A DNA stretch of 64,000 bases, taken from an uncultured Acidimicrobiaceae bacterium (GTDB lineage: Bacteria; Actinomycetota; Acidimicrobiia; Acidimicrobiales; Aldehydirespiratoraceae). Shown one piece after another: positions 17,950-33,475 of the stretch. The notes under the pieces are model-generated. The model had not been told where the DNA came from. It was given only the letters and a program-made list of their open reading frames with translations, and did no database searches. Numbering within the stretch: the first letter of the stretch is position 1; every line of letters begins with the position of its first letter. Where the stretch lies: NCBI GenBank assembly GCA_913041415.1, contig CAJWHS010000002.1, positions 17,994 to 81,993 on the forward strand, written 5' to 3'. A program made the position numbers and the translations under genes.

Positions 17950-17956
17950 CCCGCCC

Positions 17957-18060: not shown

Positions 18061-18130
18061 GGTAGGCGCCATTTCCCAGTCCCTGGGGTCGAGAGCATCG
18101 TCGTGGAGGCAGGAAGAAACTCTGAGCAAA

Positions 18131-18637: not shown

Positions 18638-19058
18638 CCGACACTCGGTCTCAGCGAGGAATGTCCTTCCACGGCTGGTTCTTGTCGTAACCCGGTTCGC
18701 GGGGAAGGCTGAGCGCCCGCTCGCCGACATTGTTGCGGAGTACCTCGCTTGGCCGTCAAAGCAACCCTGGCGCCAACAAGGACACTCGAGATACCCGCTC
18801 TGACCTGGGGTTTGTAAGTGGGGGATTAGTAGAGTTCGTTTGGCCTTTTGTGGTGCGGATGTTGGGGGCGTGGTCAGCCGGTTGATCACACCGGTTTGGC
18901 AAGATGATCACACGCCTGAGTGGTCATCTTGAGAAGGTGGAGCAGGCTCAGTACGAGACGCGCTTGGTGTGGTCGCGGGGGTGCCGGTCCGCTGAGGCAA
19001 GTGGACACCCGGCGCTCATGCGTCGGCCCTGGTGAACGCGACGATCAACTAGCGCGCG

Positions 19059-19649: not shown

Positions 19650-20231
19650 TCAGAGCGTCAGGTACGCAATAATTCGGGCGCGCATCTCGTCGAGCGATGG
19701 TGCGGCTGCGCCCTCCACTTTGGCCTGCTCGTCCCACCGACGCAGCGAAACAGCGGCGTCGAGGTGAGGCAACGCCTCAAAGGCGATGACCTCGTCGTCG
19801 GACATCGGTCCACCCTGGAGGGTTAGCGTGTGGACCGACGCCGACGACAGTTCGTCGTGGTACGACGGCTCCACTGCGCACAGATAGCGCTTTGCGGACA
19901 CGTGAAGCTGCACCGGCATGGTGACGGCCTCGTCGAACCAATTTGCGAGGAATCGGGCGCCGACATTCTCATGATGGAAGTCGGCACGAACCTCCCCATC
20001 GTCGTCTCGTTCGTTTACCAAGAGATGGCCGATGTCGTGGAGGAAGGCAGCGAGCACGGTGGCCTCCCCGGCACCTTCCTCAATCGCGCATCCAGCGCAT
20101 TGTGTTGCATGCTCAATCTGCGTGACGACCTCGCTGTACTTCTCGTCACCGCGCTGTTCGAACAGCCCGATCAACGCATCGGTAATCTCTGCGGGCTGCG
20201 CAAGTTCTCGCCATACCGGCATCGTGGCCAT
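19650..20231 (-). CDS. phnZ: HD-domain diiron oxygenase, PhnZ-like (2-amino-1-hydroxyethylphosphonate C-P cleavage)
   Basis: Start MATMPVW at 20231 shares 1 nt with the phnE stop (TGATG). VTQIEHATQCA..FLHDIGH..HVSAKRYL..LQGGPM pattern. Confidence 0.75.
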   Translation of the reverse strand: MATMPVWRELAQPAEITDALIGLFEQRGDEKYSEVVTQIEHATQCAGCAIEEGAGEATVLAAFLHDIGHLLVNERDDDGEVRADFHHENVGARFLANWFDEAVTMPVQLHVSAKRYLCAVEPSYHDELSSASVHTLTLQGGPMSDDEVIAFEALPHLDAAVSLRRWDEQAKVEGAAAPSLDEMRARIIAYLTL

Positions 20232-21931
20232 CAGATCACCTGCTTTCGGACCCAAGCCGAGAGGATTTCGATAGCGTAAACCAACACAAAGATACAAATC
20301 AGCAGGCCACCAACGAGTTCGAATTGGAAGAGACGGGTTCCCTGCACAAGCGGGAAGCCAATGCCACCCGCTCCGACGATCCCGAGAACCGTCGACGCTC
20401 GAAGTGACACATCCAGAACGTACAACGAGTGGCCAATGATCGCCGGCATCGCCTGGGGAAGTACCGACGTGAATGTCTCCTGCAGACCCGAGGCACCGGT
20501 CGCGCGGACGCCATCACGAGGCCCCTCCTTGATTTCCTCAATCGAGTCAGCGAACAACTTCGTGGAGAAGCCGTAGAGCCCGATGGCCAGAGCCAAAACA
20601 CCCGGCTGCGGACCGAGGCCCAGGGCAGCGACGAAGATCACCGCAACAATCAGGTCGGGCAGCGCACGGACGCCAAGTATGAACGAGCGGGCTGCGTTGT
20701 AGACCCAGCGGGCCGGCGCGACATTGCGAGCCGCCAGCATTGCAGTCGGGATGGCGAAGACCAGCGAGAGACCAGTCGCCGCAAAACCCATCTGGATGGT
20801 TTCAACGAGGAGCTCTCCCCAGCGGTCCTCCCACCAATCCATGTTCCTCGGGATCAGGTTGTTGAAGATCTCGGGGATCTGCGGAAACCCCTGGATCATC
20901 TCGATGAATGACAGATCGGGGACAGTGAAAGCCAGGATCAACATGGCCAGGCAGGAACTCCCAAAGATCCACATGACGATGCGGTCGCGGTTCCAGGGCG
21001 GGCGGAGCGCCTCTCGGTCGAACGGGAGCTCAGCACTCGCCCCATCAGCGGGACGGAAGTCCTCCGCCTCGACCGTGTGGCCGAGACCGAGGGTGGCGAG
21101 CACGCTCTTCTTCTTGGGTCCATCGTCGTGGCCGAGGATGACCGCCCGGACCCTGCTCGAGATGATCTCGACAATGGCGATCAAGACGATGATCACGAGG
21201 GTGACACCGAGCAACTGCTGATAGTCGAGGCTGCCCTGGTGGGCTCGGATCTGCAGGCCGATCCCGCCAGCCCCCACGAGGCCCAGCAGCGTCGAAGCAC
21301 GGAAGTTGATATCGAGCCGGTAAAGCGAGATGGCGATGAAGGAAGGGATGACCTGAGGGAGGATGCCCGTGGTGATCTCCTGGAGTCGACCGGCACCACT
21401 GGCGACCACGCCTTCGCGCGGCCCGGTATCAATCTGCTCGATCGAGTCGGAGAACAACTTGCCGAGCATGCCGATCGAGTGGAGCCCGAGAGCGAGCACG
21501 CCTGGGAGCACACCGATCGAGTACACCCGAACGAAAATCAGGGCAAGGATCAGCTCCGGCAGGGCACGGGTCACCACGATGAACGCACGGGCCGCGCCAC
21601 GGACGAAGCGGTTCTTGACGACGTTGTTCGCCGAGAGAAAAGCGATCGGGACCGCAAGGAAGACGCCGAGTGCGGTGCCGGCGAACGCCATCAGAAAGGT
21701 GTCGAGCGCCGCCTCCCACACGAGCCGCGGCTCGTCGATGCGAGGCGCCCACATCCGGTCGAGCAGGTTGAAGAGGTCCTGCCGCTCGGTCCAGAAAGTC
21801 AGCGGATTCACCCCGATGTCCCACATGCTGTAGAGACATCCGACGAAGAAGGCGACAAAGGTCGCAGTGAGGAGACTGCGTCGCCGCGAAACCGGCGGCC
21901 TGACTTGTTGCTTGGAGTCGGAAGTGACCAT
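20231..21931 (-). CDS. phnE: Phosphonate ABC transporter permease; two fused PhnE modules
   Basis: 566 aa. The EAxxxxGA-type permease module occurs twice (REGVVASGAGRLQE and RDGVRATGASGLQE). Confidence 0.85.
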   Translation of the reverse strand: MVTSDSKQQVRPPVSRRRSLLTATFVAFFVGCLYSMWDIGVNPLTFWTERQDLFNLLDRMWAPRIDEPRLVWEAALDTFLMAFAGTALGVFLAVPIAFLSANNVVKNRFVRGAARAFIVVTRALPELILALIFVRVYSIGVLPGVLALGLHSIGMLGKLFSDSIEQIDTGPREGVVASGAGRLQEITTGILPQVIPSFIAISLYRLDINFRASTLLGLVGAGGIGLQIRAHQGSLDYQQLLGVTLVIIVLIAIVEIISSRVRAVILGHDDGPKKKSVLATLGLGHTVEAEDFRPADGASAELPFDREALRPPWNRDRIVMWIFGSSCLAMLILAFTVPDLSFIEMIQGFPQIPEIFNNLIPRNMDWWEDRWGELLVETIQMGFAATGLSLVFAIPTAMLAARNVAPARWVYNAARSFILGVRALPDLIVAVIFVAALGLGPQPGVLALAIGLYGFSTKLFADSIEEIKEGPRDGVRATGASGLQETFTSVLPQAMPAIIGHSLYVLDVSLRASTVLGIVGAGGIGFPLVQGTRLFQFELVGGLLICIFVLVYAIEILSAWVRKQVI

Positions 21932-21978
21932 CTCGGAGACGACCTTGGCCTAGGTGGTGGAATCGGAATCGAGGAGCG

Positions 21979-22833
21979 TCATGAGAGGTCAGTCACCGAC
22001 GTGCCGTACTCCGAGATCTTGCGACCCTCGGGATCAAGCCGTCGGTAGACATCCATCACTCGCTCTTGCGTGAGGTCATCATCGACCGGGCTGTCGAGCA
22101 CGATCTTGCCGTCTTGGAGCCCGATGAGCCGGCTGGCCCACCCCATGGCGAGGTCGACCTGATGCAGGCTGCAGACAACGGTGATCTGGTCTTCGATACA
22201 GGCACGGAACAACAAGTCCATGACCTGACCAGAGATCTCCGGATCAAGCGAGGCAACCGGCTCGTCGGCAAGGACGATCTTGGGCTTCTGCATCAACATG
22301 CGGGCGATCGCAACGCGCTGTTGCTGGCCGCCCGACAGGGTGTCGGTGCGCTGAAAGGCACGATCGCCAAGCCCCACCCGTTCCAGCTGGGCGAGGGCCT
22401 CCTCGCGGAAGCGTTTCGGGTACGAGAGGACGCCGAAGCGAGGTCCTCGCAGCCGACCAAGTGCGCCGGAGAGCACGTTCTCCAGGCACGACACGCGACC
22501 GACGATGTTGAACTGCTGAAAGACGAAACCGACCTCGGTGCGCAGCGCCCGAAGCTTTGCGCCCTTGAGTTGATCGACGCGTCCGCCGAGCACGGTGACC
22601 GACCCCGCCGTCGGCTCGTGAAGCCCGTTCAGGTGCCTGAGCAGAGTCGACTTGCCAGATCCCGACAGGCCAATGATGACGCAAAGTTGGCCCTCGGGCA
22701 CCGAGAACGTGACGTCGTCGAGGGCGCGGACCCGCCCGTTGTCGAAGGTCTTGACGAGGCCCTCGACTTCCACCACCGGGGGAAGATCTGCATGGTTCGG
22801 AGTGGGGCGGATTGCGCCCTCGACGTCAGTCAT
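21979..22833 (-). CDS. phnC: Phosphonate ABC transporter ATP-binding protein
   Basis: GLSGSGKSTLLRHLNGL, FQQFNIVGRVSCLENVL, LSGGQQQRVAIARML. Confidence 0.85.
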   Translation of the reverse strand: MTDVEGAIRPTPNHADLPPVVEVEGLVKTFDNGRVRALDDVTFSVPEGQLCVIIGLSGSGKSTLLRHLNGLHEPTAGSVTVLGGRVDQLKGAKLRALRTEVGFVFQQFNIVGRVSCLENVLSGALGRLRGPRFGVLSYPKRFREEALAQLERVGLGDRAFQRTDTLSGGQQQRVAIARMLMQKPKIVLADEPVASLDPEISGQVMDLLFRACIEDQITVVCSLHQVDLAMGWASRLIGLQDGKIVLDSPVDDDLTQERVMDVYRRLDPEGRKISEYGTSVTDLS

Positions 22834-22847
22834 GGTTTCTCAATTCC

Positions 22848-23810
22848 TCAATCTGCCTGGCACTTCGCCGAGCCGGTGAGCTCGCAGAGCTCACGGATCG
22901 GGTCGAAGTAAGCGTCGTCACCAGCGAGGTAGCCCCAGAACGGGCCGTCCGAGAGCGGGCAGTCGTCGACGCTGTCGCAGTAGCCGTTCTCGACCGCCCA
23001 GTCGACGTTCACCTTCGTGGTCACGATCTCGATGATCTCTTCCTTCATGTCTTCCGGAAGCCAGTTGCCCACAGCAAGCGGCGGAGCTGCGATCGGAGCC
23101 GACTTGTCGATGATGCGGATCTCGGCGACGTCGCCGTTTACCGTCTCGTCCTCAACCTCGTCGATAACGCCGGCGATATCACCTGACTCGATGAGCTGCT
23201 CCGTGACCATGGTGTCGTAGGCGAAACCGGCGTCACAATCGCCGTTGGCGACGGCGAGAGCCGAAGCATCGTGACCACCAGCGAAGGTGGCTTCGATGTC
23301 GGTCGAGGTCTCCGAAGGATCAATGCCAGCAGCAAGGAGCAGGGCGCTGGGGAAAAGGAAGCCGGAGGTAGATCCTGGGTCCACGAAGCAGACCTTCTTC
23401 CCGCGAAGGTCGTCGACCGTGTTGACGTCGCTTCCCACCTGGGTGATGAGATAGGAGCGGTAGTCGCCGTAACCGTCAGGCGTATCGGAGGCCCAGAGTC
23501 CAGCGACGTCAAGATCGGCACCGGCGCCGGTGGCGATCACGTAGGAGAAGCCGCCGAACGAGGCAATGTCGACCTCTTCGGCAATGGTGCCTTCGATCAC
23601 GCCGGCGTAGTCAGCAGCCTGAATGAACTCGATCTCAACACCGAGTTCGTCAGCGATGATCTGCGGAGTGACATAGTCCGAGATCTCCTGAGCGTTCTCG
23701 GCTGGAACAGCGCCGAAGGTCAGGGTGACGGTTTCGTCATCGTCGCCACACCCAGCAGCGAACATCGTCAGGGCGGTCAGCGTGGCGAGTAGCCAGCGGA
23801 GCTTCTTCAT
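22848..23810 (-). CDS. phnD: Phosphonate ABC transporter substrate-binding lipoprotein
   Basis: Start at ATG 23810 after GGAGGG. MKKLRWLLATLTALTMFAAGC lipobox. PhnD-like body. Confidence 0.8.
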   Translation of the reverse strand: MKKLRWLLATLTALTMFAAGCGDDDETVTLTFGAVPAENAQEISDYVTPQIIADELGVEIEFIQAADYAGVIEGTIAEEVDIASFGGFSYVIATGAGADLDVAGLWASDTPDGYGDYRSYLITQVGSDVNTVDDLRGKKVCFVDPGSTSGFLFPSALLLAAGIDPSETSTDIEATFAGGHDASALAVANGDCDAGFAYDTMVTEQLIESGDIAGVIDEVEDETVNGDVAEIRIIDKSAPIAAPPLAVGNWLPEDMKEEIIEIVTTKVNVDWAVENGYCDSVDDCPLSDGPFWGYLAGDDAYFDPIRELCELTGSAKCQAD

Positions 23811-24023
23811 TTGGGTTCCCTCCGAGGGAAAGTTCAGGGCTGCTCGCGCATGACGAACGACCCATAGTTGGATGAATTCGAGCATTGCTACAGAACGAGA
23901 GCAACGTTTCGGTTAACGCAGATGAGATGTTTGATGGCCTGGTTCGAACGCCTTGGAGCAGCGTGCTGGGTCGGTCGCTAGAGAGCGATCGAACGATCGC
24001 ACGGCGTTCATCTGGGAGTAACC

Positions 24024-24842
24024 ATGCATTCGGATCCAGTCGGCCAGAATGGTGGCGTGGAGCTCACAGCGAAGCAGAGAGCGGACTGGGATCGTTCCGG
24101 ATGGCTCGTGGCCAGAGACGCGTTCACTGAGGCGGAGTTCACCGCAATCGACGTCGCCTCCCGCGAGGTGGAGTCGTGGGGTGACGAACGCGGGCTTGCC
24201 CATTTCGAACAGACTCGCCTCGGCGCTGTGATCGCACGCTCGGAGGACTTCGAGCCACACCACGGGTTCCTGCGCTCGCTTCTGCGCTCGAGCATCATCA
24301 CCGACACCGTCGATGCACTCTTCGGCGAGCCGGGTGTGCTGTTCAAAGAAAAGATCAATTACAAGCACGCAGGCGGTGGAGGCTTCGCACCCCACCAAGA
24401 TGTGACGGCCTATCCGCAAATCTCGACGTGCATCTCGGTCATGATCCCTCTCGACCCAGCTGACACGACCAACGGCTGCTTGTGGTTCACCACGAGGACC
24501 CCAGGGACGACGATCCAAAACGTGCGCGGCGCAATCCCCGAGTCGTGGTGCAGCGAACAAGAGTGGGTGCCAGTCGAGGTAAGTCCCGGCGACATCGTCT
24601 TCTTTGACGGGCTTGCACCGCATCGAAGCGACACGAACAGAAGTCAGCGATCGCGGAGGGCAATGTACGTGACCTACAACCCGCGTTCCGGCGGCGACTT
24701 TCGGAACGCCTACTACGAGGACAAACGACGCCGGCTTGCCGAGGCGAGTGTCGGCGAGAGCGGCAACGTACTCATTTCGGTGAACGACGACTTCCTCGGC
24801 CAACCGGTCGATGCGTCGGCGTCAGGCGACATCACCGCCTGA
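24024..24842 (+). CDS. phnY: PhyH-family Fe(II)/2-oxoglutarate dioxygenase, PhnY-like (2-aminoethylphosphonate hydroxylase)
   Basis: 272 aa. FAPHQDVTAY (HxD) and LAPHRSDTN motifs. Divergent from phnDCE-phnZ. Confidence 0.7.
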   Translation: MHSDPVGQNGGVELTAKQRADWDRSGWLVARDAFTEAEFTAIDVASREVESWGDERGLAHFEQTRLGAVIARSEDFEPHHGFLRSLLRSSIITDTVDALFGEPGVLFKEKINYKHAGGGGFAPHQDVTAYPQISTCISVMIPLDPADTTNGCLWFTTRTPGTTIQNVRGAIPESWCSEQEWVPVEVSPGDIVFFDGLAPHRSDTNRSQRSRRAMYVTYNPRSGGDFRNAYYEDKRRRLAEASVGESGNVLISVNDDFLGQPVDASASGDITA

Positions 24843-25341
24843 TCCAGTTTCCGTCAGGGAGCCGCTCCCAAAACCCGACACACCACGTCGCGGGAAGGGA
24901 CGGGTCGATGATTTCGTGCGCAAGGGCCTCATACGGCTGGAGGTCAGCAACGCCGTAGGCGAGGCTCACGTGGAGCCAGTCCTTTGGGCGGAGCGCGTCC
25001 TCGCCGTGCTCCGGTCGATCGGTGGTCGTGACCGTCTCGATGATCTCGAGCAGCTGCCTCGAACGAAGTTCGAGGCCAACCCAACCATCGCGTGCGCCCA
25101 AACGCTCGACAGCGACATCGTCGGGCTCACCGAATGCGTCAACGGCCGAACCGAGCGCTGCCAAGACCTCACCGACCCGATGGTCAGCGCGTCGAAAGAA
25201 CCCAGTGAGGGTGCAGTGCACTGGGTAGGACTGGGCGATGGTCGGGCCAAGCCGAGCGGTGGCTTCGTCGAAGTAGCGCTGGGCTGCGTCGGCAAGTGGC
25301 CCCATCGGCCAAGCGTAAAGAATCAATTCCCGTTCGCTCAC
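24832..25341 (-). CDS. 2H phosphoesterase superfamily protein (LigT / cyclic phosphodiesterase fold)
   Basis: GTG start 25341 overlaps the upstream stop as GTGA. Two H-x-[TS]-x motifs: VHCTLTGFF and LHVSLAYG. The track ORF carries an Arg-rich false extension to 25509. Confidence 0.65.
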   Translation of the reverse strand: MSERELILYAWPMGPLADAAQRYFDEATARLGPTIAQSYPVHCTLTGFFRRADHRVGEVLAALGSAVDAFGEPDDVAVERLGARDGWVGLELRSRQLLEIIETVTTTDRPEHGEDALRPKDWLHVSLAYGVADLQPYEALAHEIIDPSLPATWCVGFWERLPDGNWIRR

Positions 25342-26453
25342 GGGCCAACGAATGCCGTCTCGCCGCCGACGACAGCACGTCGCACGCGGGGTGGTTGCCG
25401 GTCTGCAGGCGGCTCGACCACAACGATGTCGGCAAGCTGCCCGGAGCCCAGACGGCCGCGATCGGTCAAGCCGGCGACGTCTGCGGGGACGGTCGAGACG
25501 GCCCGCCACGCCGCTCCCATCGATGCGATGCCGTGCTCGACGAGGCAGAACGGGGCAGCCAGCAGCGACGGATAGTGGTAGTCGGAGCAGAGCAGGTCCC
25601 CGGCGCCAGACGCCCAGGCCTCACGTACCGACAGGTTGCCAAGATGCGATGTTCCGCGAACGAGGTTTGGGGCACCGAGCAACACGGCGATGTCGTGCTC
25701 TCGATATCGCTTCGCAAGTTCGATGGATGTCGGGAACTCGGCGATCGCAACTCCAAGGTCAAGATCGCGCTGGAGGTCTTCGATCGTGTCAGCGTCGTGG
25801 CTTGCTGTTACGCATGACGCGATGCTCGCCACCTCGGCAAGGCGTAGCTCCTGACCGACGCCCTGCTCCCGCTGGCTGAGCGCATCGGTGTGGAGTTGTT
25901 CGAACCGCTCTGCCGATACACCGGTCCGGCCGATCTGGGTCGCCGAGATCGCATCATCGGTGTGGTCGTTGAAGGACAGCATCGTCACGACACCTTCAGC
26001 GATCCACGCCTCGAGCTGCTCAAGATCGTCGGTATTGGCCCGCTCGTGGCGGACGTGAATCTCGAGTCGTGGTGCGGAGGTGGCTCGCTGCGCGCACGCG
26101 TCGACAAGCGCAGCCAAGCTGGCGCGGCTGCGTAAACCTGGCTCCCAACTGTCGGTAGCCGACAGGTAGGCCGTCGTGATACCTGCCCCAAGCAACTGCA
26201 CGTCGTTCGCCATCAACGCAAGGCCGTAGTCAATCGCAACGCCGTCGCGCGGCATGAGGGCACGCTCGAAGGCGTCGCCGTGGATATCAATGATTCCGGG
26301 AAGCACAAGTGCGCTTCCCACATCCTCCGCCGGTACCGCCTCGATGTCGCCGTCCGTGAGCACGCGCGTGATCACATCCCCGTCCCACTCCACGACCCCG
26401 CGAACGACGTCGTCCGCTCCGTCGATCAACAGGTGTCCTCGCAACGCTGGCAT
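25338..26453 (-). CDS. Second, divergent PhnM-like amidohydrolase
   Basis: LPGIIDIHGDAFE..LLGAPNLVRGTSHLGN..LCSDYHYPSLL. Parallels PhnM at 32300..33475 (LPGLVDSHSDGLE..VMGAPNALRGHSHSGN..LASDYMPSAML). Confidence 0.75.
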   Translation of the reverse strand: MPALRGHLLIDGADDVVRGVVEWDGDVITRVLTDGDIEAVPAEDVGSALVLPGIIDIHGDAFERALMPRDGVAIDYGLALMANDVQLLGAGITTAYLSATDSWEPGLRSRASLAALVDACAQRATSAPRLEIHVRHERANTDDLEQLEAWIAEGVVTMLSFNDHTDDAISATQIGRTGVSAERFEQLHTDALSQREQGVGQELRLAEVASIASCVTASHDADTIEDLQRDLDLGVAIAEFPTSIELAKRYREHDIAVLLGAPNLVRGTSHLGNLSVREAWASGAGDLLCSDYHYPSLLAAPFCLVEHGIASMGAAWRAVSTVPADVAGLTDRGRLGSGQLADIVVVEPPADRQPPRVRRAVVGGETAFVGP

Positions 26454-26516: not shown

Positions 26517-26532
26517 AGTTGTCATGACAACT
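26517..26532. promoter_or_regulatory. 16-bp perfect palindrome AGTTGTCATGACAACT; candidate GntR/PhnF operator
   Basis: Lies in the divergent intergenic region between the phnM2-2H operon and phnF. The core TTGTCATGACAA fits the GntR-family GT-n-AC type. It is embedded in the 8-bp arms GAAGCAGT / ACTGCTTC. Confidence 0.45.
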
Positions 26533-26768: not shown

Positions 26769-27503
26769 ATGCCCGAGATCACGTATCACGAAGTCGCCGA
26801 CGAACTCGCCGAAGAGATCGAGTCTCTGGAGCCGGGCGATCGGCTGCCATCGGAAAACGAACTCGTTCGGCGCTACGGCGTGAGCCGAATCTCTGCGCGG
26901 GCGGCGCTGCAAGAGTTGGAACGACGCATGCTGGTGCGCCGAACCCGCGGATCAGGCACACGCGTTGCCCTTCGGCTCCCGTATCCGCTGCGAGCTGGCA
27001 CCACACCAAGTTGGGGGCAGCTTGTTCGCGAAGCAGGCCACACGCCGACCTACGCGGTCGACAGCATCCGCTCTGAGCGCGCCAACGCTGCGATTGGTCG
27101 GGCGCTGATGATTCCCCGCGGCCGGATGATCACCCGGGTTCAACGGCGAATGTTCGTCGACGGTGAGGTCGCGGCCTGCCAAAGCCACTGGCTTCCGAGC
27201 GACGAGGTCCCGAACATCTCGGACCACCAGGATCCTTCCGGGTCGCTCTCCCTGACCCTCACCGGCCATTTTGGCTTCGAACTTGACCGGGCCTGGTCTC
27301 GGGCGAAGCTCGCTGTGCCGACGGTGGAGATTGCTGCTGATCTTGAGTTGACCGGTCGACCTCCGATTTGGCGGGTTGAGTCGCTCAACCACTGCGAGCG
27401 TCGCCGTCGACCCGTCGAGTATGCGATTGCGTGGAATCGCGCCGACGTCTTCGACGTGTTGCTCGAACTCGGACCATCCGACGGACCAACGGAGATGCGA
27501 TGA
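26769..27503 (+). CDS. phnF: GntR/HutC-family regulator PhnF
   Basis: MPEITYHEVADELAEEIESLEPGDRLPSENELVRRYGVSRISARAALQELE (wHTH) plus a UTRA-like C-terminus. ATGA overlap with phnG. Confidence 0.8.
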   Translation: MPEITYHEVADELAEEIESLEPGDRLPSENELVRRYGVSRISARAALQELERRMLVRRTRGSGTRVALRLPYPLRAGTTPSWGQLVREAGHTPTYAVDSIRSERANAAIGRALMIPRGRMITRVQRRMFVDGEVAACQSHWLPSDEVPNISDHQDPSGSLSLTLTGHFGFELDRAWSRAKLAVPTVEIAADLELTGRPPIWRVESLNHCERRRRPVEYAIAWNRADVFDVLLELGPSDGPTEMR

Positions 27504-27946
27504 CAGAAATCCCGAGAGCTACAAGCGATGCCTCATTTCGGGCGTCGATGCTCGCCCAGGCCGACGCCGCCTCGCTCGCCGTGGTCGCTGACGAATGTCT
27601 GGCTGCAGCACCGACCCCCCGGGTGCACTTCGGCCCTGACGTCGGCACGATCATGCTGACGATGCGGGAGCCAGTAGAGGCAACCCGGTTTCACCTCGGC
27701 GAGGTGCTCGTCACCCGGTGCCAGGTTCAGCATCGCGAGACGGTTGCCTGGGCGATGCGCATGGGCGACGACCGAGCGTCAACCCTTGCCGCTGCGGTAT
27801 GCGATGCCGAGGTCGCCGCCGCTGGGCCGGCGGCGGCGTCTGTCGAGCGTCTCGTCGCCGAAACCCGTCGCCACCTTGACGCCGAGCGCGCCGAGGAATG
27901 GCGCGAACTTGAGCCCACGATCGTCGCCTTCGAGGAGATGGACTGA
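27500..27946 (+). CDS. phnG: C-P lyase core complex subunit PhnG
   Basis: MTEIPRAT..RFHLGEVLVTRCQV. Position and overlaps are typical. Confidence 0.75.
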   Translation: MTEIPRATSDASFRASMLAQADAASLAVVADECLAAAPTPRVHFGPDVGTIMLTMREPVEATRFHLGEVLVTRCQVQHRETVAWAMRMGDDRASTLAAAVCDAEVAAAGPAAASVERLVAETRRHLDAERAEEWRELEPTIVAFEEMD

Positions 27947-28518
27947 TGGCCGTTCCTGTTCTGACTGGCACACCGAGTCAAGCGGCGTTCGACGCCATCT
28001 TGCGCTCGCTTTCTGAACCCGGCTCGATTCGGCAGTTGCCACCGAGCCCGTCTCCGGAGGTTCCGGCCTATGCGATGGTCGCTCTGGCTCTCGGCGACAT
28101 CGATCTCGGTGTGTGCGTCGACGACGATCCGATGCACCCGGTGGCTCTCATGCTGCGAGCCGCTACCGGCATGACGATCACGGGTCGAGACAACGCACAG
28201 TTCGTTGTATGCAGCAACGAGGCGGTGCCGGTGGGCAATCTGCTCACCGGCACGGCCCTTGCCCCCGAAGACGCTGCCCGCCTCACGATCGCAGTCGACG
28301 ATCTCGACGCCGATGGCGACGGTGCGGTTGTCCTTCGTGGTCCGGGGGTACCCGGGGAGCGGCGACTCTGCGTTCGCGGCCTTGACCGGAAGACGCTGCT
28401 CAGCCTCGGCCGAACGTCCGGCACCTTTCCTGCTGGCATCGACACCTGGCTGGTCACCGCAGAAGGGCGGATCGCGGCGATTCCCCGAAGCACCACGGTC
28501 ACACAAGGAGAACACTGA
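27946..28518 (+). CDS. phnH: C-P lyase subunit PhnH
   Basis: 190 aa. QAAFDAILRSLSEPG. 1-nt TGATG overlaps on both sides. Confidence 0.75.
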   Translation: MAVPVLTGTPSQAAFDAILRSLSEPGSIRQLPPSPSPEVPAYAMVALALGDIDLGVCVDDDPMHPVALMLRAATGMTITGRDNAQFVVCSNEAVPVGNLLTGTALAPEDAARLTIAVDDLDADGDGAVVLRGPGVPGERRLCVRGLDRKTLLSLGRTSGTFPAGIDTWLVTAEGRIAAIPRSTTVTQGEH

Positions 28519-29720
28519 TGGGTTACGTCGCAGCAAAGGGCGGGTTTGATGCCATCCAGGCAGCTGAGACGCTTGTCCGACGTCGTCGGATCGAGGGCCG
28601 CAGCTCCTGGCTTGAGCTCGATCAGATCGTCGATCGGCTCCGCTACTCGGTCGACCGAGTCATGGGCGAAGGTGGCCTTTGGGACGAGCAACTCTCCGCT
28701 CGGGCCTTCCGCCAGGCCGAGGGAGACGTCATTGAGGCAGCTCACCTCATCCGGGCCCACCGCTCAACACTTCCGCGCTTTGGGTACGCCCGTGTTGTGG
28801 ACGCCGACGAGATCGATGTGCTCCGGCGCATCGTGCCTGCGTTCCGTGAACCTCCGGGCCCCCAACTCCTCGGTCGCACCCTTGACTACACCGGCCGACT
28901 CCTTGATCAGACGCCGGAGGACGAGGGTCGTCGCCAGGCCGCCGAAGCTGCCGCCAACCGTCGTGAGCGCGTCGTCTCGACTCAAGTGAGCGCTGATGAG
29001 CCGACGGTGGACCAGCGGGTTCCAGGCCGGCTAATCGACGTACTGCGTAACCTCGACGCGCTCGTTGACCGCCGCCGAGACGATGACCCTGAACCGGTCG
29101 ACATCAGCCGTGTCGCCGCCCGTCCGGGTGCACCCCGGTCAGCTCGGCTCTCGACCATGGCGCGGGCCGAAACCGGGGCGCTCGTGCAACTCTGGTATCG
29201 AAACATTCTCGGACCGGACCGCAACCTCCACGAGGTGACCCTCGGCGAGGTTCGCCACGGTCGTCTTCCTATCGAGGTCCAAAACCCGCTCACGGGAGAA
29301 ACCGTCCCCATTGGTTCGGTTCGAGTCACCGAGGTTGAGGCCATCGAGGATCTCGACGGTGTCGAGGAGGATCGCACTCGTTTCGACGTCGGCTACGGCA
29401 TCTGCCTCGGCCACAACGAACGCAAGGCGATTGCCATGGCCAACCTCGATGTCGCCGTCGATAGGGCGGCGGGCGACGGTCCGCTTGAGCAGTCGGTTCT
29501 GATGACGACCGACGGGCTCGACGCCTCCGGCTTCCTTGAACACCTCAAGCTTCCGCATTACGTCACGTTCCGCTCGATGATGGAGCGCAAGACGGCGATG
29601 CGCGAGGCCGCTGGCACCAAGCGGCAGGAACGCCTCGCTCAGGGCCGTTCGGACTGCGAGGTCACCGACGTATCTGGCGACGCTGGTGCTCCTGTCGAAC
29701 GAGAGGACGTGCTGCGATGA
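28518..29720 (+). CDS. phnI: C-P lyase subunit PhnI (ribosyl-phosphonate triphosphate synthase)
   Basis: MGYVAAKGGFDAIQAAE N-terminus, like E. coli MYVAVKGGEKAI. 400 aa. Confidence 0.85.
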   Translation: MGYVAAKGGFDAIQAAETLVRRRRIEGRSSWLELDQIVDRLRYSVDRVMGEGGLWDEQLSARAFRQAEGDVIEAAHLIRAHRSTLPRFGYARVVDADEIDVLRRIVPAFREPPGPQLLGRTLDYTGRLLDQTPEDEGRRQAAEAAANRRERVVSTQVSADEPTVDQRVPGRLIDVLRNLDALVDRRRDDDPEPVDISRVAARPGAPRSARLSTMARAETGALVQLWYRNILGPDRNLHEVTLGEVRHGRLPIEVQNPLTGETVPIGSVRVTEVEAIEDLDGVEEDRTRFDVGYGICLGHNERKAIAMANLDVAVDRAAGDGPLEQSVLMTTDGLDASGFLEHLKLPHYVTFRSMMERKTAMREAAGTKRQERLAQGRSDCEVTDVSGDAGAPVEREDVLR

Positions 29721-30655
29721 CCCTTGCCGACGTTCTCGCCACGACCGGCCCGGCACCAGCGTCTGAGGTCGCCGTCGAACTGACGCCCATCCTTGACGAG
29801 TCGGCAAAGCGTGAGATTCGTCGAGCGGTACTCACCGCCATTGCTGTGCCGGGCTACCAGGTGCCGTTCGGTTCGCGAGAGATGCCGGTCGCCCGTGGAT
29901 GGGGTTCCGGTGGCCTCCAAATCTCCCTTGCGGTCGTCGGGGACGACGATGTCGTAAAGGTCTATGACCAAGGTGAGGACGGTGGCGTGAACGCAGCCAA
30001 CCTTCGTCGACTGATCCGTCGTTCCGAGGGCGTCAAGACCACAACCGACGCCCGTGAGGCTTCGGTGATCCAAACCCGCCACCGGGTTCCCGAGGATGAA
30101 CTGATCGCGGACCAGATCCTTGTCCTTCAAGTGCCTGTGCCCGAACCCCTCCGCGGGATTGAGCGCGACATGAACGAACTGCGTCGAATGCACGCCGAGG
30201 CCGACTACGCCCGGATGTGGGTGAGTCTCTACGAAGACATCGTCCGCAATGGTGTCATCACCCGAACAACCGGCTACCCGTGCCTCGTCGACGGGCGCTA
30301 CGTGATCGCAACCACCCCCATCCCGCGATGGGACGTTCCGCCGCTCCATCAAGCGAAGTTCCTCTCGCTGTTCGGCGCTGGTCGCGAAAAGCGGATCTAC
30401 GCGATCCCGCCGTACACGGATGTGGAGCCACTGACCTTCGATGACGTCCCCTTCGAGGTCGAGGAGGTCAGCGAGCCGTGCCGCTGCGGCCTGATCTGTC
30501 CCGGTGACGAACAGGGGGCTTATCTGGTCGAGCTCCCGGCACAGGACGGCACCTCGCAGTGGGTGTGCAGCGACACCGACTGGTGCACCCGGCATCGCGT
30601 GGCCAACGGCGTGCTCGGCAGCGAAGCCCTCGACGACGCCGACGAACTCTGGTGA
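29717..30655 (+). CDS. phnJ: C-P lyase catalytic radical-SAM subunit PhnJ
   Basis: AVPGYQVPFGSREMPVARGWGSGGLQ, and the Cys cluster CRCGLIC..C..C near the C-terminus. Confidence 0.9.
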   Translation: MTLADVLATTGPAPASEVAVELTPILDESAKREIRRAVLTAIAVPGYQVPFGSREMPVARGWGSGGLQISLAVVGDDDVVKVYDQGEDGGVNAANLRRLIRRSEGVKTTTDAREASVIQTRHRVPEDELIADQILVLQVPVPEPLRGIERDMNELRRMHAEADYARMWVSLYEDIVRNGVITRTTGYPCLVDGRYVIATTPIPRWDVPPLHQAKFLSLFGAGREKRIYAIPPYTDVEPLTFDDVPFEVEEVSEPCRCGLICPGDEQGAYLVELPAQDGTSQWVCSDTDWCTRHRVANGVLGSEALDDADELW

Positions 30656-30665
30656 AGGGAAGGCT

Positions 30666-31505
30666 GTGAGCGATTGGATGCTCCGAGTCGAAGGACTCGG
30701 CAAGATTTACGGACCGGGCGGCCCGGCTGACGTTGAGGGCACCGGCCCCGAGTTCGGTCGATCGGTCAGCCCATCGACCGGCGCAGTCGTCGGCTGCTGG
30801 GACGTCGGCTTCGAGGTGGCGGCGGGCGAAGCGCTCGGCGTGATCGGTGAGTCCGGATCTGGCAAGTCGACCGTTATGCGCTGTATCGCTGGCGACCAGA
30901 CCGCGACGACGGGTTCGGCTCACATCCGAACCGTCGACGGTGGTGAGGCCGACGTCATGGGGTTCGACCCGTCCCGCCGCCGATCGCTGCGGGTCGACGA
31001 GCTCGCAGTGGTCTATCAGGATCCCTCGGAGGGGCTTGATCTCCACGTGTCAGCGGGCGGCAACGTCGCCGATCGCCTCACCGCCGCTGGATGGCGCAAC
31101 TTCGGCGACATCCGCCGACGGGCCGCAGAGCTTCTGGCCCGGACCGAGGTCCCACTCGATCGTATGGATGATCCTGTCTCGACCTTCTCAGGAGGTATGC
31201 GCCAGCGGGTCCAGCTCGCCAAGGCGCTCGCCAACCAGCCGTCGGTGCTTTTGCTCGACGAGCCGACTACTGGCCTCGACGCCTCGGTCGCGGCCGGAGT
31301 GCTCGACCTCATTCGCGATCTGCTCCAGGAGACTGGCGTCGCCGCGGTGGTTGTGAGCCACGACTTCGCCGTCATCGAGATGTTGACCCGCCGCTCACTC
31401 GTGATGCATCACAGCCGCGTCGTCGAGGCCGGCCTGACTGACCAGTTGCTCGAAGATCCGCAACATCCGTATAGCCAGCGCCTCGTCGGCGCTGCCCGGG
31501 GGTGA
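30666..31505 (+). CDS. phnK: C-P lyase system ATP-binding protein PhnK
   Basis: GTG start after GAAGGGA (alternative ATG at 30678). GESGSGKSTVMRCIAGD, LSGGMRQRVQLAKAL. Confidence 0.8.
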   Translation: MSDWMLRVEGLGKIYGPGGPADVEGTGPEFGRSVSPSTGAVVGCWDVGFEVAAGEALGVIGESGSGKSTVMRCIAGDQTATTGSAHIRTVDGGEADVMGFDPSRRRSLRVDELAVVYQDPSEGLDLHVSAGGNVADRLTAAGWRNFGDIRRRAAELLARTEVPLDRMDDPVSTFSGGMRQRVQLAKALANQPSVLLLDEPTTGLDASVAAGVLDLIRDLLQETGVAAVVVSHDFAVIEMLTRRSLVMHHSRVVEAGLTDQLLEDPQHPYSQRLVGAARG

Positions 31506-32266
31506 CAATGCCGTTTCAGAACCTTTTGACCGTTCGAGGGCTCACGAAGTCCTTCACGCTCCACGCCGTTGACGGGCGTGTTGTCCGGGGCCTTTGCGGG
31601 GTCGACCTTGACATCGTGGAGGGCGAACACGTTGCGCTTGCCGGCCGATCTGGGGCCGGTAAGTCCAGTTTGTTGAAGTGCGTACACCGCACCTACGTCG
31701 CCGACGATGGGGTCGTCGTGTATCGCCGGGCCAACGGAGACGCCGTCGACCTGTTGTCGATGAGTGACAGCGACGTTGCTGATCTGCGCTCCCAGGAGAT
31801 CGGCTATGTCTCGCAGTTTCTCCGCGCTGAACCCCGACGGGGGGTGCTCGACGTTGTCGCTGGTGCCGCTCGACGAATGGGAGTCGACGAGGGCGAGGCC
31901 CGAGACCGAGCCGCCGACGTACTCCGCCGGGTCAACATTGATGAGTCTCTCTGGTCGACGTATCCGACGTTGCTTTCCGGCGGGGAGAAACAGCGGGTCA
32001 ATCTTGCGGCCGGCATCGTTGAGGCGCCGCGTCTGTTGTTGCTCGACGAGCCCGTATCTGCGCTCGACCCGGCGAACCGGGTCGCTGTGCTCGACATCCT
32101 CTCCGACCTCACGTCGCGTGGAGCCACAGTGCTCAGTGTGTTCCACGACATCGACGCCATGCGCGTCCTCGCCGACCGGGTGGTCGTGATGGAGGACGGC
32201 GTCGTCGTCGATCACGGCGAGGCCAATCAGGTCCTCGATCGCAACCTTGAGCGCGAGCTTGTCTGA
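31502..32266 (+). CDS. phnL: C-P lyase system ATP-binding protein PhnL
   Basis: GTGA overlap with phnK. LTKSFTLHAVDG..GRSGAGKSSLLKC..LSGGEKQRVNLA. Confidence 0.8.
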   Translation: MTMPFQNLLTVRGLTKSFTLHAVDGRVVRGLCGVDLDIVEGEHVALAGRSGAGKSSLLKCVHRTYVADDGVVVYRRANGDAVDLLSMSDSDVADLRSQEIGYVSQFLRAEPRRGVLDVVAGAARRMGVDEGEARDRAADVLRRVNIDESLWSTYPTLLSGGEKQRVNLAAGIVEAPRLLLLDEPVSALDPANRVAVLDILSDLTSRGATVLSVFHDIDAMRVLADRVVVMEDGVVVDHGEANQVLDRNLERELV

Positions 32267-32299: not shown

Positions 32300-33475
32300 A
32301 TGACCACTGCCATCACCGACGTTCGCGTCGTTCTACCCACTGCCATCACCGACGACGCGACGGTCATTATCGACGAAGGTCGTATCGCCCAAATCACGAC
32401 CGGCAGGGCGCCCGCCGGTGCCCGCTCCGGCCACGGTGCGCTGCTGTTGCCCGGGCTCGTCGATAGCCACAGTGATGGCCTCGAGAAGGAGATTGCTCCT
32501 CGTCAGACCGTCCGCTTCCCGCTCGACTATGGCCTCCGCTCGTTTGAGGGTCGGGTCAGAGCGGCCGGTATCACCACGATCTGCCATGGCGTTGGTTATC
32601 AGGAGAAAGCCAAAGCGGGTCGCTCCGTCGAGCGTGCTCGAGAGACGGTTGCTGCGATCGCCGCCCGCAGCCGCGAGGTTGACACCGGCGTCGACCATCG
32701 CGTGCTGTACCGGTTCGAGGCTCGCGACCCCGAGGCGCTCACGCCGCTCCTGGAGGACCTCGGCTCGTCCCCCAAGAACGACGTCGCTCCGCTCTTGAGC
32801 TTCGAGGACCACACACCTGGGCAGGGTCAGTTCCGAGATATCGCCCAGTACGAAGCCGCCGTCGATCCGACCACGCTTCCTGAAGGCGAGACCGTGCAGT
32901 CCTATGTCGCCCGCCTCAAGGCTGAGGGTGATGCCATGCTCGCCAGCCGCCAAGAAAACCGGGCCCGGCTCGCGCCACTTGCCCGCCGGGGAGATCTCCG
33001 CTTGCTGGCCCATGACCTCGAGACCATCGATGACGTGGCCGAGGCAGTTGATGCCGGTGCGACGATCGCCGAATTCCCGCTTTCCATGGACGTGGCCAAG
33101 CACGCGAAAGCCGCTGGCATGACGACGGTCATGGGGGCGCCCAATGCACTTCGTGGACACTCACACTCGGGCAACACGTCGGCTCGGGACCTTGTCGTTG
33201 CCGGTCTCTGCGACGTGCTTGCGTCGGACTACATGCCGTCGGCGATGCTTGCCGCTGCGTTCGCCATGGCTGCCGCCAACGTCTGCACCTTGCCCGAAGC
33301 GGTCGCGCTGATCACCTCAGGGCCGGCGACGATGATCGGTGAGGTCGATCGCGGCCGTATTGAAGTCGGTGCGCTTGCCGATCTGATCCTGGTCGATGAT
33401 TCTGGCGCATGGCCGGTCGTGCTCGATGTTCGTCGAGCGGCTGATCATCCCGTTCGCGGCGACATTGGCGCATGA
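32300..33475 (+). CDS. phnM: PhnM (alpha-D-ribose 1-methylphosphonate 5-triphosphate diphosphatase)
   Basis: LPGLVDSHSDGLEKE..SFEDHTPGQGQF..MGAPNALRGHSHSGN..SDYMPSAML. Confidence 0.85.
   Translation: MTTAITDVRVVLPTAITDDATVIIDEGRIAQITTGRAPAGARSGHGALLLPGLVDSHSDGLEKEIAPRQTVRFPLDYGLRSFEGRVRAAGITTICHGVGYQEKAKAGRSVERARETVAAIAARSREVDTGVDHRVLYRFEARDPEALTPLLEDLGSSPKNDVAPLLSFEDHTPGQGQFRDIAQYEAAVDPTTLPEGETVQSYVARLKAEGDAMLASRQENRARLAPLARRGDLRLLAHDLETIDDVAEAVDAGATIAEFPLSMDVAKHAKAAGMTTVMGAPNALRGHSHSGNTSARDLVVAGLCDVLASDYMPSAMLAAAFAMAAANVCTLPEAVALITSGPATMIGEVDRGRIEVGALADLILVDDSGAWPVVLDVRRAADHPVRGDIGA

What the first reader, a model, noticed from the sequence alone, without database searches (positions are those of the whole stretch)
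24832..26453. Second PhnM paralog translationally coupled to a 2H phosphoesterase: candidate replacement for the missing PhnP
I see no metallo-beta-lactamase-type PhnP and no PhnN in the window. Instead, a divergent PhnM-like amidohydrolase (HGD instead of HSD at the first metal motif) overlaps by GTGA a small protein with two H-x-[TS]-x motifs (HCTL, HVSL). These motifs are the hallmark of 2H cyclic phosphodiesterases. Members of that superfamily hydrolyse ADP-ribose 1'',2''-cyclic phosphate. That is chemically the same transformation as PhnP's opening of 5-phosphoribosyl 1,2-cyclic phosphate, the PhnJ product. To my knowledge a 2H enzyme in this role has not been characterised. The paired PhnM paralog could process a different ribosyl-phosphonate or cyclic intermediate.
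Basis: inference. Interest (0 to 1): 0.7.

Follow-up and report, generated by a model that had tools for sequence, protein, structure and literature searches.

The report
Second 2H esterase family in phosphonate operons
A small, unannotated two-histidine (2H) phosphoesterase sits next to a second PhnM-type hydrolase in a carbon-phosphorus lyase gene cluster that lacks PhnP and PhnN. It most likely opens the cyclic phosphate left by C-P bond cleavage, a role already proposed for a different 2H family (DUF1045/RcsF), so this is a new variant, not a new idea.

Summary
A 371-aa PhnM-like amidohydrolase (25338-26453, minus strand) overlaps by GTGA a 169-aa protein (24832-25341, minus strand). That protein carries two conserved H-x-T/S motifs and has a confidently predicted 2H fold. 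It lies divergent from phnFGHIJKLM. No PhnP, PhnN, DUF1045 or PHP gene is in the window.

The gene is phn-linked in most related genomes. It shares a conserved palindromic operator with phnF. It never co-occurs locally with PhnP, PhnN or DUF1045.

A 2H enzyme replacing PhnP is not a new idea. It has long been proposed for RcsF/DUF1045, though I found no biochemical proof.

What is new:
- This is a separate 2H family. No Pfam or NCBIfam model covers it, and it is not detectably related to DUF1045. Its nearest relative is the phosphodiesterase domain of animal UBASH3/Sts proteins.
- The PhnM2-type partner is a widespread PhnM clade. In different lineages it is followed by this family, by DUF1045, or by PhnN-PhnP.

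PhnM2 may simply be a PhnM isozyme, since it is the only PhnM in a Marinobacter cluster. An IMPase-family gene coupled to the canonical phnM is a candidate for the phosphate-releasing step. Enzymology is needed.

The parts
24832..25341 (-). 169-aa stand-alone 2H phosphoesterase of a new phn-linked family. Candidate 5-phosphoribosyl 1,2-cyclic phosphate (PRcP) phosphodiesterase.
   Evidence: H42-x-T and H124-x-S are invariant in 37 homologues. AF2 pLDDT is 97. Foldseek top hits are all 2H enzymes. 29 of 37 members hit PF13563 and none hit DUF1045. hhalign to the UBASH3B 2H domain gives prob 98.65%. phn linkage is shown.
25338..26453 (-). PhnM2: a PhnM-clade amidohydrolase with the signature HGDAFER / SATDSWEPGLRSR / HxRHE / SDYHYPSLL. 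Its stop overlaps the 2H start (GTGA).
   Evidence: NF011987 at 351 bits, above the cutoff of 253. Residues shared with PhnM are conserved. Clade signature. The 4-nt overlap is conserved in 19 of 35 adjacent pairs.
26519..26530 (.). Perfect palindrome TTGTCATGACAA in the divergent PhnM2/phnF intergenic region. Candidate PhnF (GntR/HutC-type) operator.
   Evidence: It occurs once in the window. Exact copies are in 17 of the 175 fetched loci (18 copies). In every locus I could check against a gene table or hit table, they lie between phnF and the (PhnM2-)2H gene or upstream of phnD. About 0.1-0.2 copies would be expected by chance in roughly 2 Mb (my estimate).
26769..27503 (+). phnF, a GntR/UTRA regulator, divergent from PhnM2-2H.
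   Evidence: TIGR02325 at E=1.1e-28. The ATG at 26769 is deduced from the ORF translation.
27500..32266 (+). phnG-H-I-J-K-L, the C-P lyase core. phnG starts at 27500, phnH at 27946, phnI at 28518, phnJ at 29717 and phnL at 31502. phnK ends at 31505; its start is uncertain.
   Evidence: NCBIfam hits for PhnG, H, K and L. The window's PhnI and PhnJ ORFs match the Pfam-labelled or annotated PhnI and PhnJ genes of related loci by tblastn.
32300..33475 (+). Canonical phnM (PhnM1).
   Evidence: TIGR02318 at 331.7 bits. NF011990 at 316 bits, above the cutoff of 233.
33472..34290 (+). IMPase/FBPase-family phosphatase, translationally coupled (ATGA) to phnM. Candidate sugar-bisphosphate phosphatase that releases Pi.
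   Evidence: PF00459 at 69 bits. The best NCBIfam match is NF009321, FBPase/IMPase, at 141.7 bits, below its cutoff. Orthologues follow phnM or abut the 2H gene in 10 related loci and on a Pseudonocardia plasmid.
24024..24842 (+). PhyH-family dioxygenase, PhnY*-like. It is convergent with the 2H gene, and the two 3' ends overlap by 11 nt.
   Evidence: PF05721 at E=3.3e-25. NF052437, methylphosphonate hydroxylase, at 193.8 bits, below the cutoff of 500.
19650..23885 (-). phnD (22848-23885), phnC (21979-22833), fused phnE (20231-21931), and a PhnZ-type HD-domain oxygenase (19650-20297; start uncertain).
   Evidence: Pfam hits. TIGR03276 Phn-HD at 218.6 bits against a cutoff of 214.6.

Best explanation
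The 169-aa protein is a catalytically competent 2H cyclic phosphodiesterase and an accessory enzyme of the C-P lyase pathway. It takes the place of PhnP.

Proposed steps:
1. PhnJ cleaves the C-P bond and leaves 5-phosphoribosyl 1,2-cyclic phosphate (PRcP).
2. The 2H enzyme hydrolyses that cyclic diester to a ribose bisphosphate. Whether the product is the 1,5- or the 2,5-isomer is unknown.
3. The locus has no PhnN kinase, so a phosphatase then probably strips the new phosphomonoester, giving ribose 5-phosphate plus Pi. The best candidate is the IMPase/FBPase-family protein coupled to phnM. PhnM2 is a second candidate. This would be a hydrolytic route like that of PhnPP.

The PhnM2-2H pair is transcribed divergently from phnF-phnGHIJKLM. 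A shared operator-like palindrome suggests PhnF control of the pair. PhnM2 itself is most simply a second isozyme of the PhnM triphosphate diphosphatase.

Shown here: the fold, the conserved catalytic motifs, the gene linkage, the shared palindrome, and the local absence of PhnP, PhnN and DUF1045.
Inferred: the substrate, the regiochemistry, and the roles of PhnM2 and the IMPase-family protein.
For: Fold and motifs:
- AF2 pLDDT is 97. The best PDB matches are YjcG, Usb1, LigT and the Appr>p CPDase.
- H42 and H124, plus R118, K120 and R160, are invariant.

Linkage:
- Three of five long contigs looked up by exact protein place the gene divergent from phnF-GHIJKLM. A fourth places it in a cyanobacterial phn operon directly after phnM. 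The fifth has the PhnM-like gene plus 2H pair with no phnJ within 10 kb.
- Among 80 species genomes, 29 loci have at least 8 kb on both sides. Of these, 16 carry phnJ and 22 carry a PhnM-like gene within 10 kb.
- None of the 80 has PhnP, PhnN or DUF1045 nearby.

Shared partner:
- Of 80 metagenomic loci fetched through PhnM2-specific motifs, the PhnM2 gene is flanked by DUF1045 in 34. In 27 of those, DUF1045 is immediately downstream on the same strand.
- It is followed by the new 2H family in 5 loci and by PhnN-PhnP in 1. No locus has two of these partners.
- This is the pattern expected if the partners do the same job.

Coupling and regulation:
- The ATGA/GTGA overlap is kept in 19 of 35 adjacent pairs, down to about 41% identity.
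- The palindrome TTGTCATGACAA is conserved upstream of the (PhnM2-)2H operon.

Precedent:
- Two post-methane routes are recognised: PhnP gives ribose 1,5-bisphosphate and PhnPP gives ribose 5-phosphate (PMC8774927).
- RcsF/DUF1045 has been proposed as a PhnP analogue.
- The nearest characterised homologue, the Sts-1 PDE domain, hydrolyses 2',3'-cyclic nucleotides (PMC10218301).
Against: - No enzymology exists for this family. I also found none for DUF1045 acting on PRcP.
- Seven of the 29 well-flanked loci show no phn gene within 8-10 kb and have unrelated neighbours. All seven are below 40% identity to the window protein.
- Four PhnM2-2H pairs lie more than 10 kb from any phnJ: L022, L024, L032 and L035.
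- The window protein itself scores below the Pfam threshold for PF13563, at 14.3 against 27 bits.
- A Pseudonocardia plasmid has phnF-M plus the IMPase gene but no 2H gene within 25 kb. The 2H gene is therefore not an obligatory companion of the IMPase.
- Genome-wide absence of phnP and phnN could not be checked.
Confidence: 0.62

Rival explanations
1. The 2H protein is a general 2',3'-cyclic nucleotide or RNA-end phosphodiesterase (ThpR/YjcG-like). It scavenges phosphate or repairs RNA. It is merely co-regulated with phn genes under phosphate stress and does not act on the PhnJ product.
For: - The best structural matches are RNA and nucleotide enzymes: YjcG, Usb1 and LigT.
- The nearest characterised homologue, Sts-1 PDE, acts on 2',3'-cNMPs.
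- About a quarter of well-flanked family members are not next to phn genes.
Against: - The gene is adjacent to PhnM-type genes across three phyla.
- It swaps position with DUF1045 and with PhnN-PhnP behind the same PhnM2 partner.
- It shows local mutual exclusion with PhnP and DUF1045.
- Clusters that have it lack any other candidate for the essential ring-opening step.
Confidence: 0.15
2. PhnM2 and the 2H protein form a two-enzyme module with its own substrate. One possibility is a different ribosyl-phosphonate or a side product such as ribose 5-triphosphate or ribose 1,2-cyclic phosphate. Another is that PhnM2 is the phosphatase acting on the ring-opened bisphosphate and so substitutes for PhnN.
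For: - The 4-nt overlap is conserved.
- The PhnM2 clade has its own invariant residues, absent from canonical PhnM: R64, R108, R110, H136 and H293.
- It coexists with a canonical PhnM in Acidimicrobiia and Cyanobacteria.
- 32 of the 34 PhnM2-DUF1045 loci show no PhnN nearby.
- Some PhnM2-2H pairs stand apart from phnGHIJKL.
Against: - On Marinobacter nauticus pMAQU01 a PhnM2-clade protein is the only PhnM in a full phnDCE-M-GHIJKL-phnN-phnP cluster. This argues that the clade performs the ordinary PhnM reaction.
- L114 has PhnM, PhnM2, PhnN and PhnP together.
- Some cyanobacteria put the 2H gene directly behind a canonical PhnM.
- 4-nt overlaps are generic in this operon.
Confidence: 0.2
3. 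The small protein is a non-catalytic or regulatory 2H-fold subunit.
For: Some 2H-fold domains are binding modules rather than enzymes. The AKAP18 central domain, which binds AMP, is among the structural matches.
Against: Both H-x-T/S motifs and the flanking basic residues are invariant across 37 sequences that are only 35-85% identical to the window protein.
Confidence: 0.03

Closest known systems
RcsF / DUF1045 (PF06299, TIGR03223 'putative phosphonate metabolism protein')
   Same: It is a 2H-superfamily protein embedded in C-P lyase clusters that lack phnP, and it is adjacent to a PhnM gene. It has been proposed to open PRcP. It occupies the same slot behind PhnM2-type genes.
   Different: There is no detectable sequence relationship. 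The window protein has no TIGR03223 or PF06299 hit, and hhalign gives prob 0.67%. It is about 170 aa against about 235 aa. Villarreal-Chiu 2012 found DUF1045 almost entirely in alpha- and beta-proteobacteria. The new family is in Acidimicrobiia, Cyanobacteria and Chloroflexota. DUF1045 clusters usually keep phnN, and these do not.
PDE (2H) domain of animal UBASH3/Sts proteins and ecdysteroid-phosphate phosphatase
   Same: It is the closest sequence relative. hhalign gives prob 98.65% and E=4.9e-16, with both catalytic motifs aligned. Profile hits at E of about 1e-17 to 1e-23 have the UBA / 2H / SH3 / histidine-phosphatase architecture. Sts-1 PDE is a proven cyclic phosphodiesterase.
   Different: The animal proteins are multidomain signalling proteins. 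The bacterial one is a stand-alone enzyme in a phosphonate operon. The physiological substrate of the Sts domain is unknown.
PhnP (metallo-beta-lactamase-fold phosphoribosyl cyclic phosphodiesterase, E. coli)
   Same: It catalyses the reaction proposed here, hydrolysis of PRcP after PhnJ, and it has the same pathway position.
   Different: The fold and mechanism are unrelated: a dinuclear metal site against two histidines with no metal. There is no sequence match in the window or in 80 related loci.
PhnPP / cyclic phosphate dihydrolase (PHP family; Ghodge et al. 2013, recalled from memory; the route is cited in PMC8774927)
   Same: It is a PhnN-independent hydrolytic route from PRcP to ribose 5-phosphate plus Pi. 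This is the net outcome I propose for the 2H enzyme plus a phosphatase.
   Different: PhnPP is one enzyme doing both steps, and its fold is different. No PHP domain was found in the window.
Plant and yeast Appr>p cyclic phosphodiesterase, and B. subtilis YjcG
   Same: Same fold, with TM-scores of 0.61-0.69. The plant and yeast enzyme opens a ribose 1'',2''-cyclic phosphate. That is from general knowledge of the family.
   Different: Only 12-14% identity. These enzymes work in tRNA-splicing by-product or nucleotide metabolism and are not phn-linked.

Membership tests
2H phosphoesterase superfamily | Two H-x-T/S-x motifs | tested here: met
   H42-C-T-L and H124-V-S-L are present. Both His residues and the T/S positions are conserved in 37 homologues.
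2H phosphoesterase superfamily | Pseudo-twofold alpha/beta fold shared with solved 2H enzymes | tested here: met
   The AF2 model has pLDDT 97 and pTM 0.90. Foldseek prob is 1.00 to Usb1, YjcG, LigT and CPDase, with TM-scores up to 0.69.
2H phosphoesterase superfamily | Significant match to a superfamily HMM (PF13563 or PF02834) | tested here: inconclusive
   The window protein scores 14.3 bits at E=0.044, below the gathering score of 27. However, 29 of 37 family members hit PF13563 (best E=1.3e-8) and 15 hit PF02834.
2H phosphoesterase superfamily | Histidine-dependent hydrolysis of a cyclic phosphodiester | not testable with these tools
   This needs an enzyme assay.
RcsF / DUF1045 / TIGR03223 | Match to PF06299 or TIGR03223 | tested here: not met
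   There is no hit at E<=0.01, and none among 37 members at E<=1. The Shinella DUF1045 control scores 278 bits on TIGR03223. hhalign gives prob 0.67%.
RcsF / DUF1045 / TIGR03223 | Location in C-P lyase clusters lacking phnP, next to phnM | tested here: met
   This is a functional resemblance only, not homology at the family level.
UBASH3/Sts PDE-domain family | Profile-level homology across the whole 2H domain | tested here: met
   hhalign prob 98.65% and E=4.9e-16 over 165 columns. hmmsearch E of about 1e-17 to 1e-23 to animal UBASH3 proteins.
UBASH3/Sts PDE-domain family | UBA-2H-SH3-histidine phosphatase architecture | tested here: not met
   The window protein is a 169-aa single domain.
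PhnP (MBL fold) | Sequence similarity to PhnP or a Lactamase_B domain | tested here: not met
   tblastn finds no hit and Pfam finds no hit.
PhnM (for the 371-aa partner) | Match to PhnM models above the curated cutoff | tested here: met
   The NF011987 subfamily scores 351.4 against 253, and NF011990 scores 253.1 against 233. The strict equivalog TIGR02318 scores 278.6, below its cutoff of 390.55.
PhnM (for the 371-aa partner) | Conservation of the residues invariant among PhnMs (HxD, E, H, HD, H, D) | tested here: met
   H58, D60, E137, H164, H219, D220, H270 and D291 are invariant in alignments that include E. coli and Shinella PhnM.
PhnM (for the 371-aa partner) | Hydrolysis of ribose-1-methylphosphonate 5-triphosphate to PRPn plus PPi | not testable with these tools
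   Indirect support only: a PhnM2-clade protein is the sole PhnM of the Marinobacter pMAQU01 cluster.

The most novel reading that the evidence does not exclude
The stand-alone 2H enzyme, with PhnM2 and/or the IMPase-family protein, defines a third way of finishing the C-P lyase pathway, independent of PhnP and PhnN. In this reading the 2H enzyme opens PRcP with the unusual Sts-type regiochemistry and gives ribose 2,5-bisphosphate, which PhnN cannot use. A dedicated phosphatase then releases the phosphonate-derived Pi. The PDE domain of animal UBASH3/Sts proteins would descend from this bacterial family. That would point to a ribose 1,2-cyclic-phosphate-type metabolite as its long-sought physiological substrate.
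Probability: 0.15. Interest if true: 0.7.

Novelty: new variant of a known kind. Interest (0 to 1): 0.45.

Why it matters
C-P lyase is a major route by which marine and soil bacteria mine phosphonates, and it releases methane from methylphosphonate. Gene surveys that score pathway completeness by phnP, phnN or phnPP would call these Acidimicrobiia, cyanobacterial and Chloroflexota clusters incomplete. The ring-opening gene is currently labelled 'hypothetical' or, wrongly, 'ubiquitin-associated SH3 domain-containing protein'.

Recognising a second 2H family, and the recurrent pairing of a PhnM2-type gene with a 2H gene, gives a testable annotation. It would also be a clean case of non-orthologous displacement. 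If the product is ribose 5-phosphate plus Pi rather than PRPP, the energetic bookkeeping of the pathway differs from E. coli. The homology to the UBASH3/Sts PDE domain is a possible lead to that domain's unknown substrate.

Tried and rejected
- PDB sequence searches with the family profile, with PhnM2 and with a DUF1045 protein gave nothing useful. The only hits were spurious matches to designed repeat proteins.
- I first thought the HD-domain genes next to the 2H gene in cyanobacteria might be the missing phosphatase. I rejected this because they match TIGR03276, the PhnZ-type phosphonate oxygenase.
- I first read PhnM2 as an obligate partner of the 2H enzyme. I weakened this after finding it as the sole PhnM with phnN and phnP in Marinobacter, and with PhnN-PhnP in L114.
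- I looked at the neighbours of seven family members that are not phn-linked. They show no common theme: UDP-glucose dehydrogenase, methyltransferase, MFS transporter, arginine decarboxylase, CysRS.
- Literature searches found nothing on this family, on an IMPase gene in phn operons, or on C-P lyase in Acidimicrobiia.
- Podzelinska 2009, Mazumder 2002 and Ghodge 2013 are not held in the library. What I say about them comes from citing papers or from memory.
- The promoter and terminator scan was uninformative.
- Genome-wide absence of phnP and phnN could not be tested.
Full report
**What is there**

The window is about 65% G+C. Its closest genome match is an Acidimicrobiales MAG, with the 2H protein 98% identical in locus L014.

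Around the finding lies a complete phosphonate locus:

| Strand | Genes, in order |
|---|---|
| minus | phnD (22848-23885), phnC (21979-22833), fused phnE (20231-21931), PhnZ-type HD oxygenase (19650-20297; TIGR03276 at 218.6 bits) |
| plus | PhyH/PhnY*-like dioxygenase (24024-24842) |
| minus | the two genes of the finding: 2H (24832-25341) and PhnM2 (25338-26453) |
| plus | phnF (26769-27503), phnG-H-I-J-K-L, canonical phnM (32300-33475), IMPase/FBPase-family gene (33472-34290) whose ATG overlaps the phnM stop |

**Checking the observation**

- The 371-aa ORF is a PhnM-type amidohydrolase. It scores 351 bits on NF011987 against a cutoff of 253. It keeps every residue that is invariant among PhnMs.
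- The 169-aa ORF starts at a GTG that overlaps the upstream TGA. Homologues begin at the same position.
- The 169-aa ORF has no Pfam or NCBIfam hit at E<=0.01. It does have 141 database homologues.
- In an alignment of 37 of them, H42-x-[TS]-L-T-G-F-F and R118-x-K120-x-x-L-H124-x-S-L-A-Y are invariant or nearly so.
- An AlphaFold2 model built on that alignment has mean pLDDT 97. Its best PDB matches are all 2H phosphoesterases: human Usb1, B. subtilis YjcG (TM 0.69), E. coli LigT, the Arabidopsis Appr>p cyclic phosphodiesterase and AKAP18.
- 29 of the 37 members hit PF13563, with a best E of 1.3e-8.
- The window has no PhnP, PhnN or DUF1045 by six-frame tblastn. It has no MBL, PHP or PhnN-type kinase domain by Pfam on its main ORFs.
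- 'HGD versus HSD' is only variation at a non-ligand position. The 4-nt overlap is one of several in the operon.

**Is the 2H gene really a phn gene?**

I looked up five homologues on long contigs:
- Three lie divergent from phnF-GHIJKLM. One of these has PhnM2; two do not.
- One cyanobacterial copy follows phnI-J-(K/L)-M directly.
- One PhnM2-2H pair has no phnJ within 10 kb.

A scan of one genome per species returned 80 loci, from Acidimicrobiia, Cyanobacteria, Chloroflexota and a few others. I scored them by tblastn with the window's Phn proteins and with reference PhnM, PhnN, PhnO, PhnP and DUF1045:

| Set | phnJ present | PhnM-like gene present | PhnM-like gene directly upstream, same strand |
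|---|---|---|---|
| All 80 loci | 27 | 50 | 29 (22 of PhnM2 type) |
| 29 loci with at least 8 kb on both sides | 16 | 22 | 12 |

- Seven of the 29 well-flanked loci show no phn gene. All seven are below 40% identity to the window protein, and their neighbours have no common theme.
- None of the 80 loci has PhnP, PhnN or DUF1045, even at E<0.05.
- The exact 12-nt palindrome TTGTCATGACAA sits in the PhnM2/phnF intergenic region of the window at 26519-26530.
- It recurs in 17 of the 175 fetched loci. Where gene or hit tables let me place it, it lies between phnF and the (PhnM2-)2H gene or upstream of phnD.
- Chance would give about 0.1-0.2 copies in roughly 2 Mb. It has the GT..AC symmetry typical of GntR/HutC operators, so PhnF control of the 2H operon is likely. 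That is an inference.

**The partner gene**

- PhnM2-type proteins form a clade with their own signature: HGDAFER, SATDSWEPGLRSR, HxRHE and SDYHYPSLL.
- A metagenome scan seeded on two of these motifs returned 80 loci. In every one the best match is PhnM2 rather than canonical PhnM.
- In 34 of them a DUF1045 gene flanks PhnM2, and in 27 it is immediately downstream on the same strand. In 5 the new 2H family follows. In one, L114, the order is phnIJKL-PhnM-PhnM2-PhnN-PhnP. No locus has two of these partners.
- The ATGA/GTGA overlap between PhnM2 and the new 2H gene is kept in 19 of 35 adjacent pairs, including nearly all Acidimicrobiia-type pairs down to about 41% identity.
- So the same slot is filled by two unrelated-looking 2H families or by PhnN-PhnP. 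That is the strongest comparative argument that the 2H protein does PhnP's job.
- The same data undercut a special role for PhnM2. On Marinobacter nauticus pMAQU01 a PhnM2-clade protein is the only PhnM in a phnDCE-M-GHIJKL-MFS-phnN-phnP cluster. The clade can probably carry out the ordinary PhnM reaction.

**Relation to what is known**

- A 2H protein in phn clusters lacking phnP (RcsF, DUF1045, TIGR03223) has long been proposed as the PhnP analogue.
- The window protein is not that family. It has no TIGR03223 or PF06299 match, whereas a Shinella DUF1045 control scores 278 bits. hhalign between the two gives prob 0.67%.
- Its closest relatives are instead the 2H/PDE domains of animal UBASH3/Sts and ecdysteroid-phosphate phosphatase proteins. 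hhalign gives prob 98.65% and E=4.9e-16, with both motifs aligned. This explains the odd JGI label 'ubiquitin-associated SH3 domain-containing protein'.
- Sts-1 PDE hydrolyses 2',3'-cyclic nucleotides to 3'-nucleotides.
- The family is small. There are 230 representative clusters at E<=1e-10 among 1.84 billion.
- Published descriptions of cyanobacterial and actinobacterial phn clusters list such genes as hypothetical, or only note that phnP is missing.

**Mechanism proposed**

1. PhnJ produces PRcP.
2. The 2H enzyme opens the cyclic diester.
3. With no PhnN kinase present, a phosphatase releases Pi and leaves ribose 5-phosphate.

- The IMPase/FBPase-family gene is the best candidate for step 3. 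It is coupled to phnM here. It recurs after phnM or back-to-back with the 2H gene in 10 related loci. It also follows phnM on a Pseudonocardia plasmid, at 50% identity.
- PhnM2 is an alternative candidate.
- The net chemistry would equal that of PhnPP (and my recollection of Ghodge et al. 2013).
- Fold, motifs, linkage and regulation are shown. Substrate, regiochemistry and the division of labour are inferred.

**Verdict**

This is a new variant of a known kind: a second, unannotated 2H family filling the PhnP slot, plus a recurrent PhnM2/2H gene pair. It is moderately interesting to specialists. Straightforward enzymology and complementation would decide it.

Noticed in passing
window 26519-26530; also L001 8733-8744, L003 9904-9915, L007 9996-10007, L016 8810-8821 and 10561-10572, L026 1183-1194 and others: The perfect palindrome TTGTCATGACAA is conserved in exact form between phnF and the (PhnM2-)2H gene, or upstream of phnD, in 17 related loci. 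It is probably the PhnF operator of this lineage.
   Followed up: partly
window 33472-34290 (+); L010 15649-16440; L007 2470-3222: An IMPase/FBPase-family phosphatase is translationally coupled to canonical phnM (ATGA overlap). It recurs in Acidimicrobiia phn clusters and on a Pseudonocardia plasmid. In L027, L033 and L040 it lies back-to-back with the 2H gene. I found no literature on it.
   Followed up: partly
window 24024-24842 (+) and 19650-20297 (-): The same locus carries a PhnY*-like PhyH dioxygenase and a PhnZ-type HD oxygenase. The organism therefore seems to combine an oxidative C-P cleavage route with C-P lyase. In cyanobacteria the HD gene directly follows the 2H gene, with no PhyH gene detected in those loci.
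   Followed up: partly
window 24832-24842: The 3' ends of the convergent PhyH gene and the 2H gene overlap by 11 nt.
   Followed up: no
P0206, P0233, P0245, P0218 (animal proteins): The 2H/PDE domain of animal UBASH3/Sts and ecdysteroid-phosphate phosphatase proteins is the closest relative of this bacterial phn-linked family. This is a possible clue to the origin and substrate of that domain.
   Followed up: partly
L012 12618-13037; L175 11387-11809: FosX/FosA-type fosfomycin-resistance genes are inserted between phnI and the next phn gene. This is seen in a Shinella plasmid and a Nostoc plasmid. In Nostoc a GNAT acetyltransferase also sits between phnH and phnI.
   Followed up: no
window 14737-19439: Upstream of the HD gene lies a run of genes: radical SAM/SPASM (14737-15897), GcvT-like aminomethyltransferase (15957-17090), a 265-aa ORF with no family hit (17152-17949), glyoxalase-fold (18185-18637) and SnoaL-like (19059-19439). 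Whether they relate to phosphonate metabolism is unknown.
   Followed up: no
L022, L024, L032, L035: PhnM2-2H pairs stand more than 10 kb from any phnJ, among unrelated genes. In L004/L024 the neighbours are a beta-lactamase-family gene, a DEAD helicase and AbiEi. Either the phn cluster is split in these genomes or the pair has an independent role.
   Followed up: no
window 25329-25344 (-): A short hairpin, CCCGTGAGCGAACGGG with a 5-bp stem, spans the PhnM2 stop and the 2H start. The terminator scan flagged it, but such matches are fewer here than in shuffled sequence. It could affect reinitiation.
   Followed up: no
window 53547-54914 (-) and 55196-56227 (+); 888-3767 (-) and 9639-12632 (-): The window holds two divergent glutamine-synthetase-family genes and two large molybdopterin (xanthine-dehydrogenase-type) subunit genes. 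They are unrelated to the finding.
   Followed up: no
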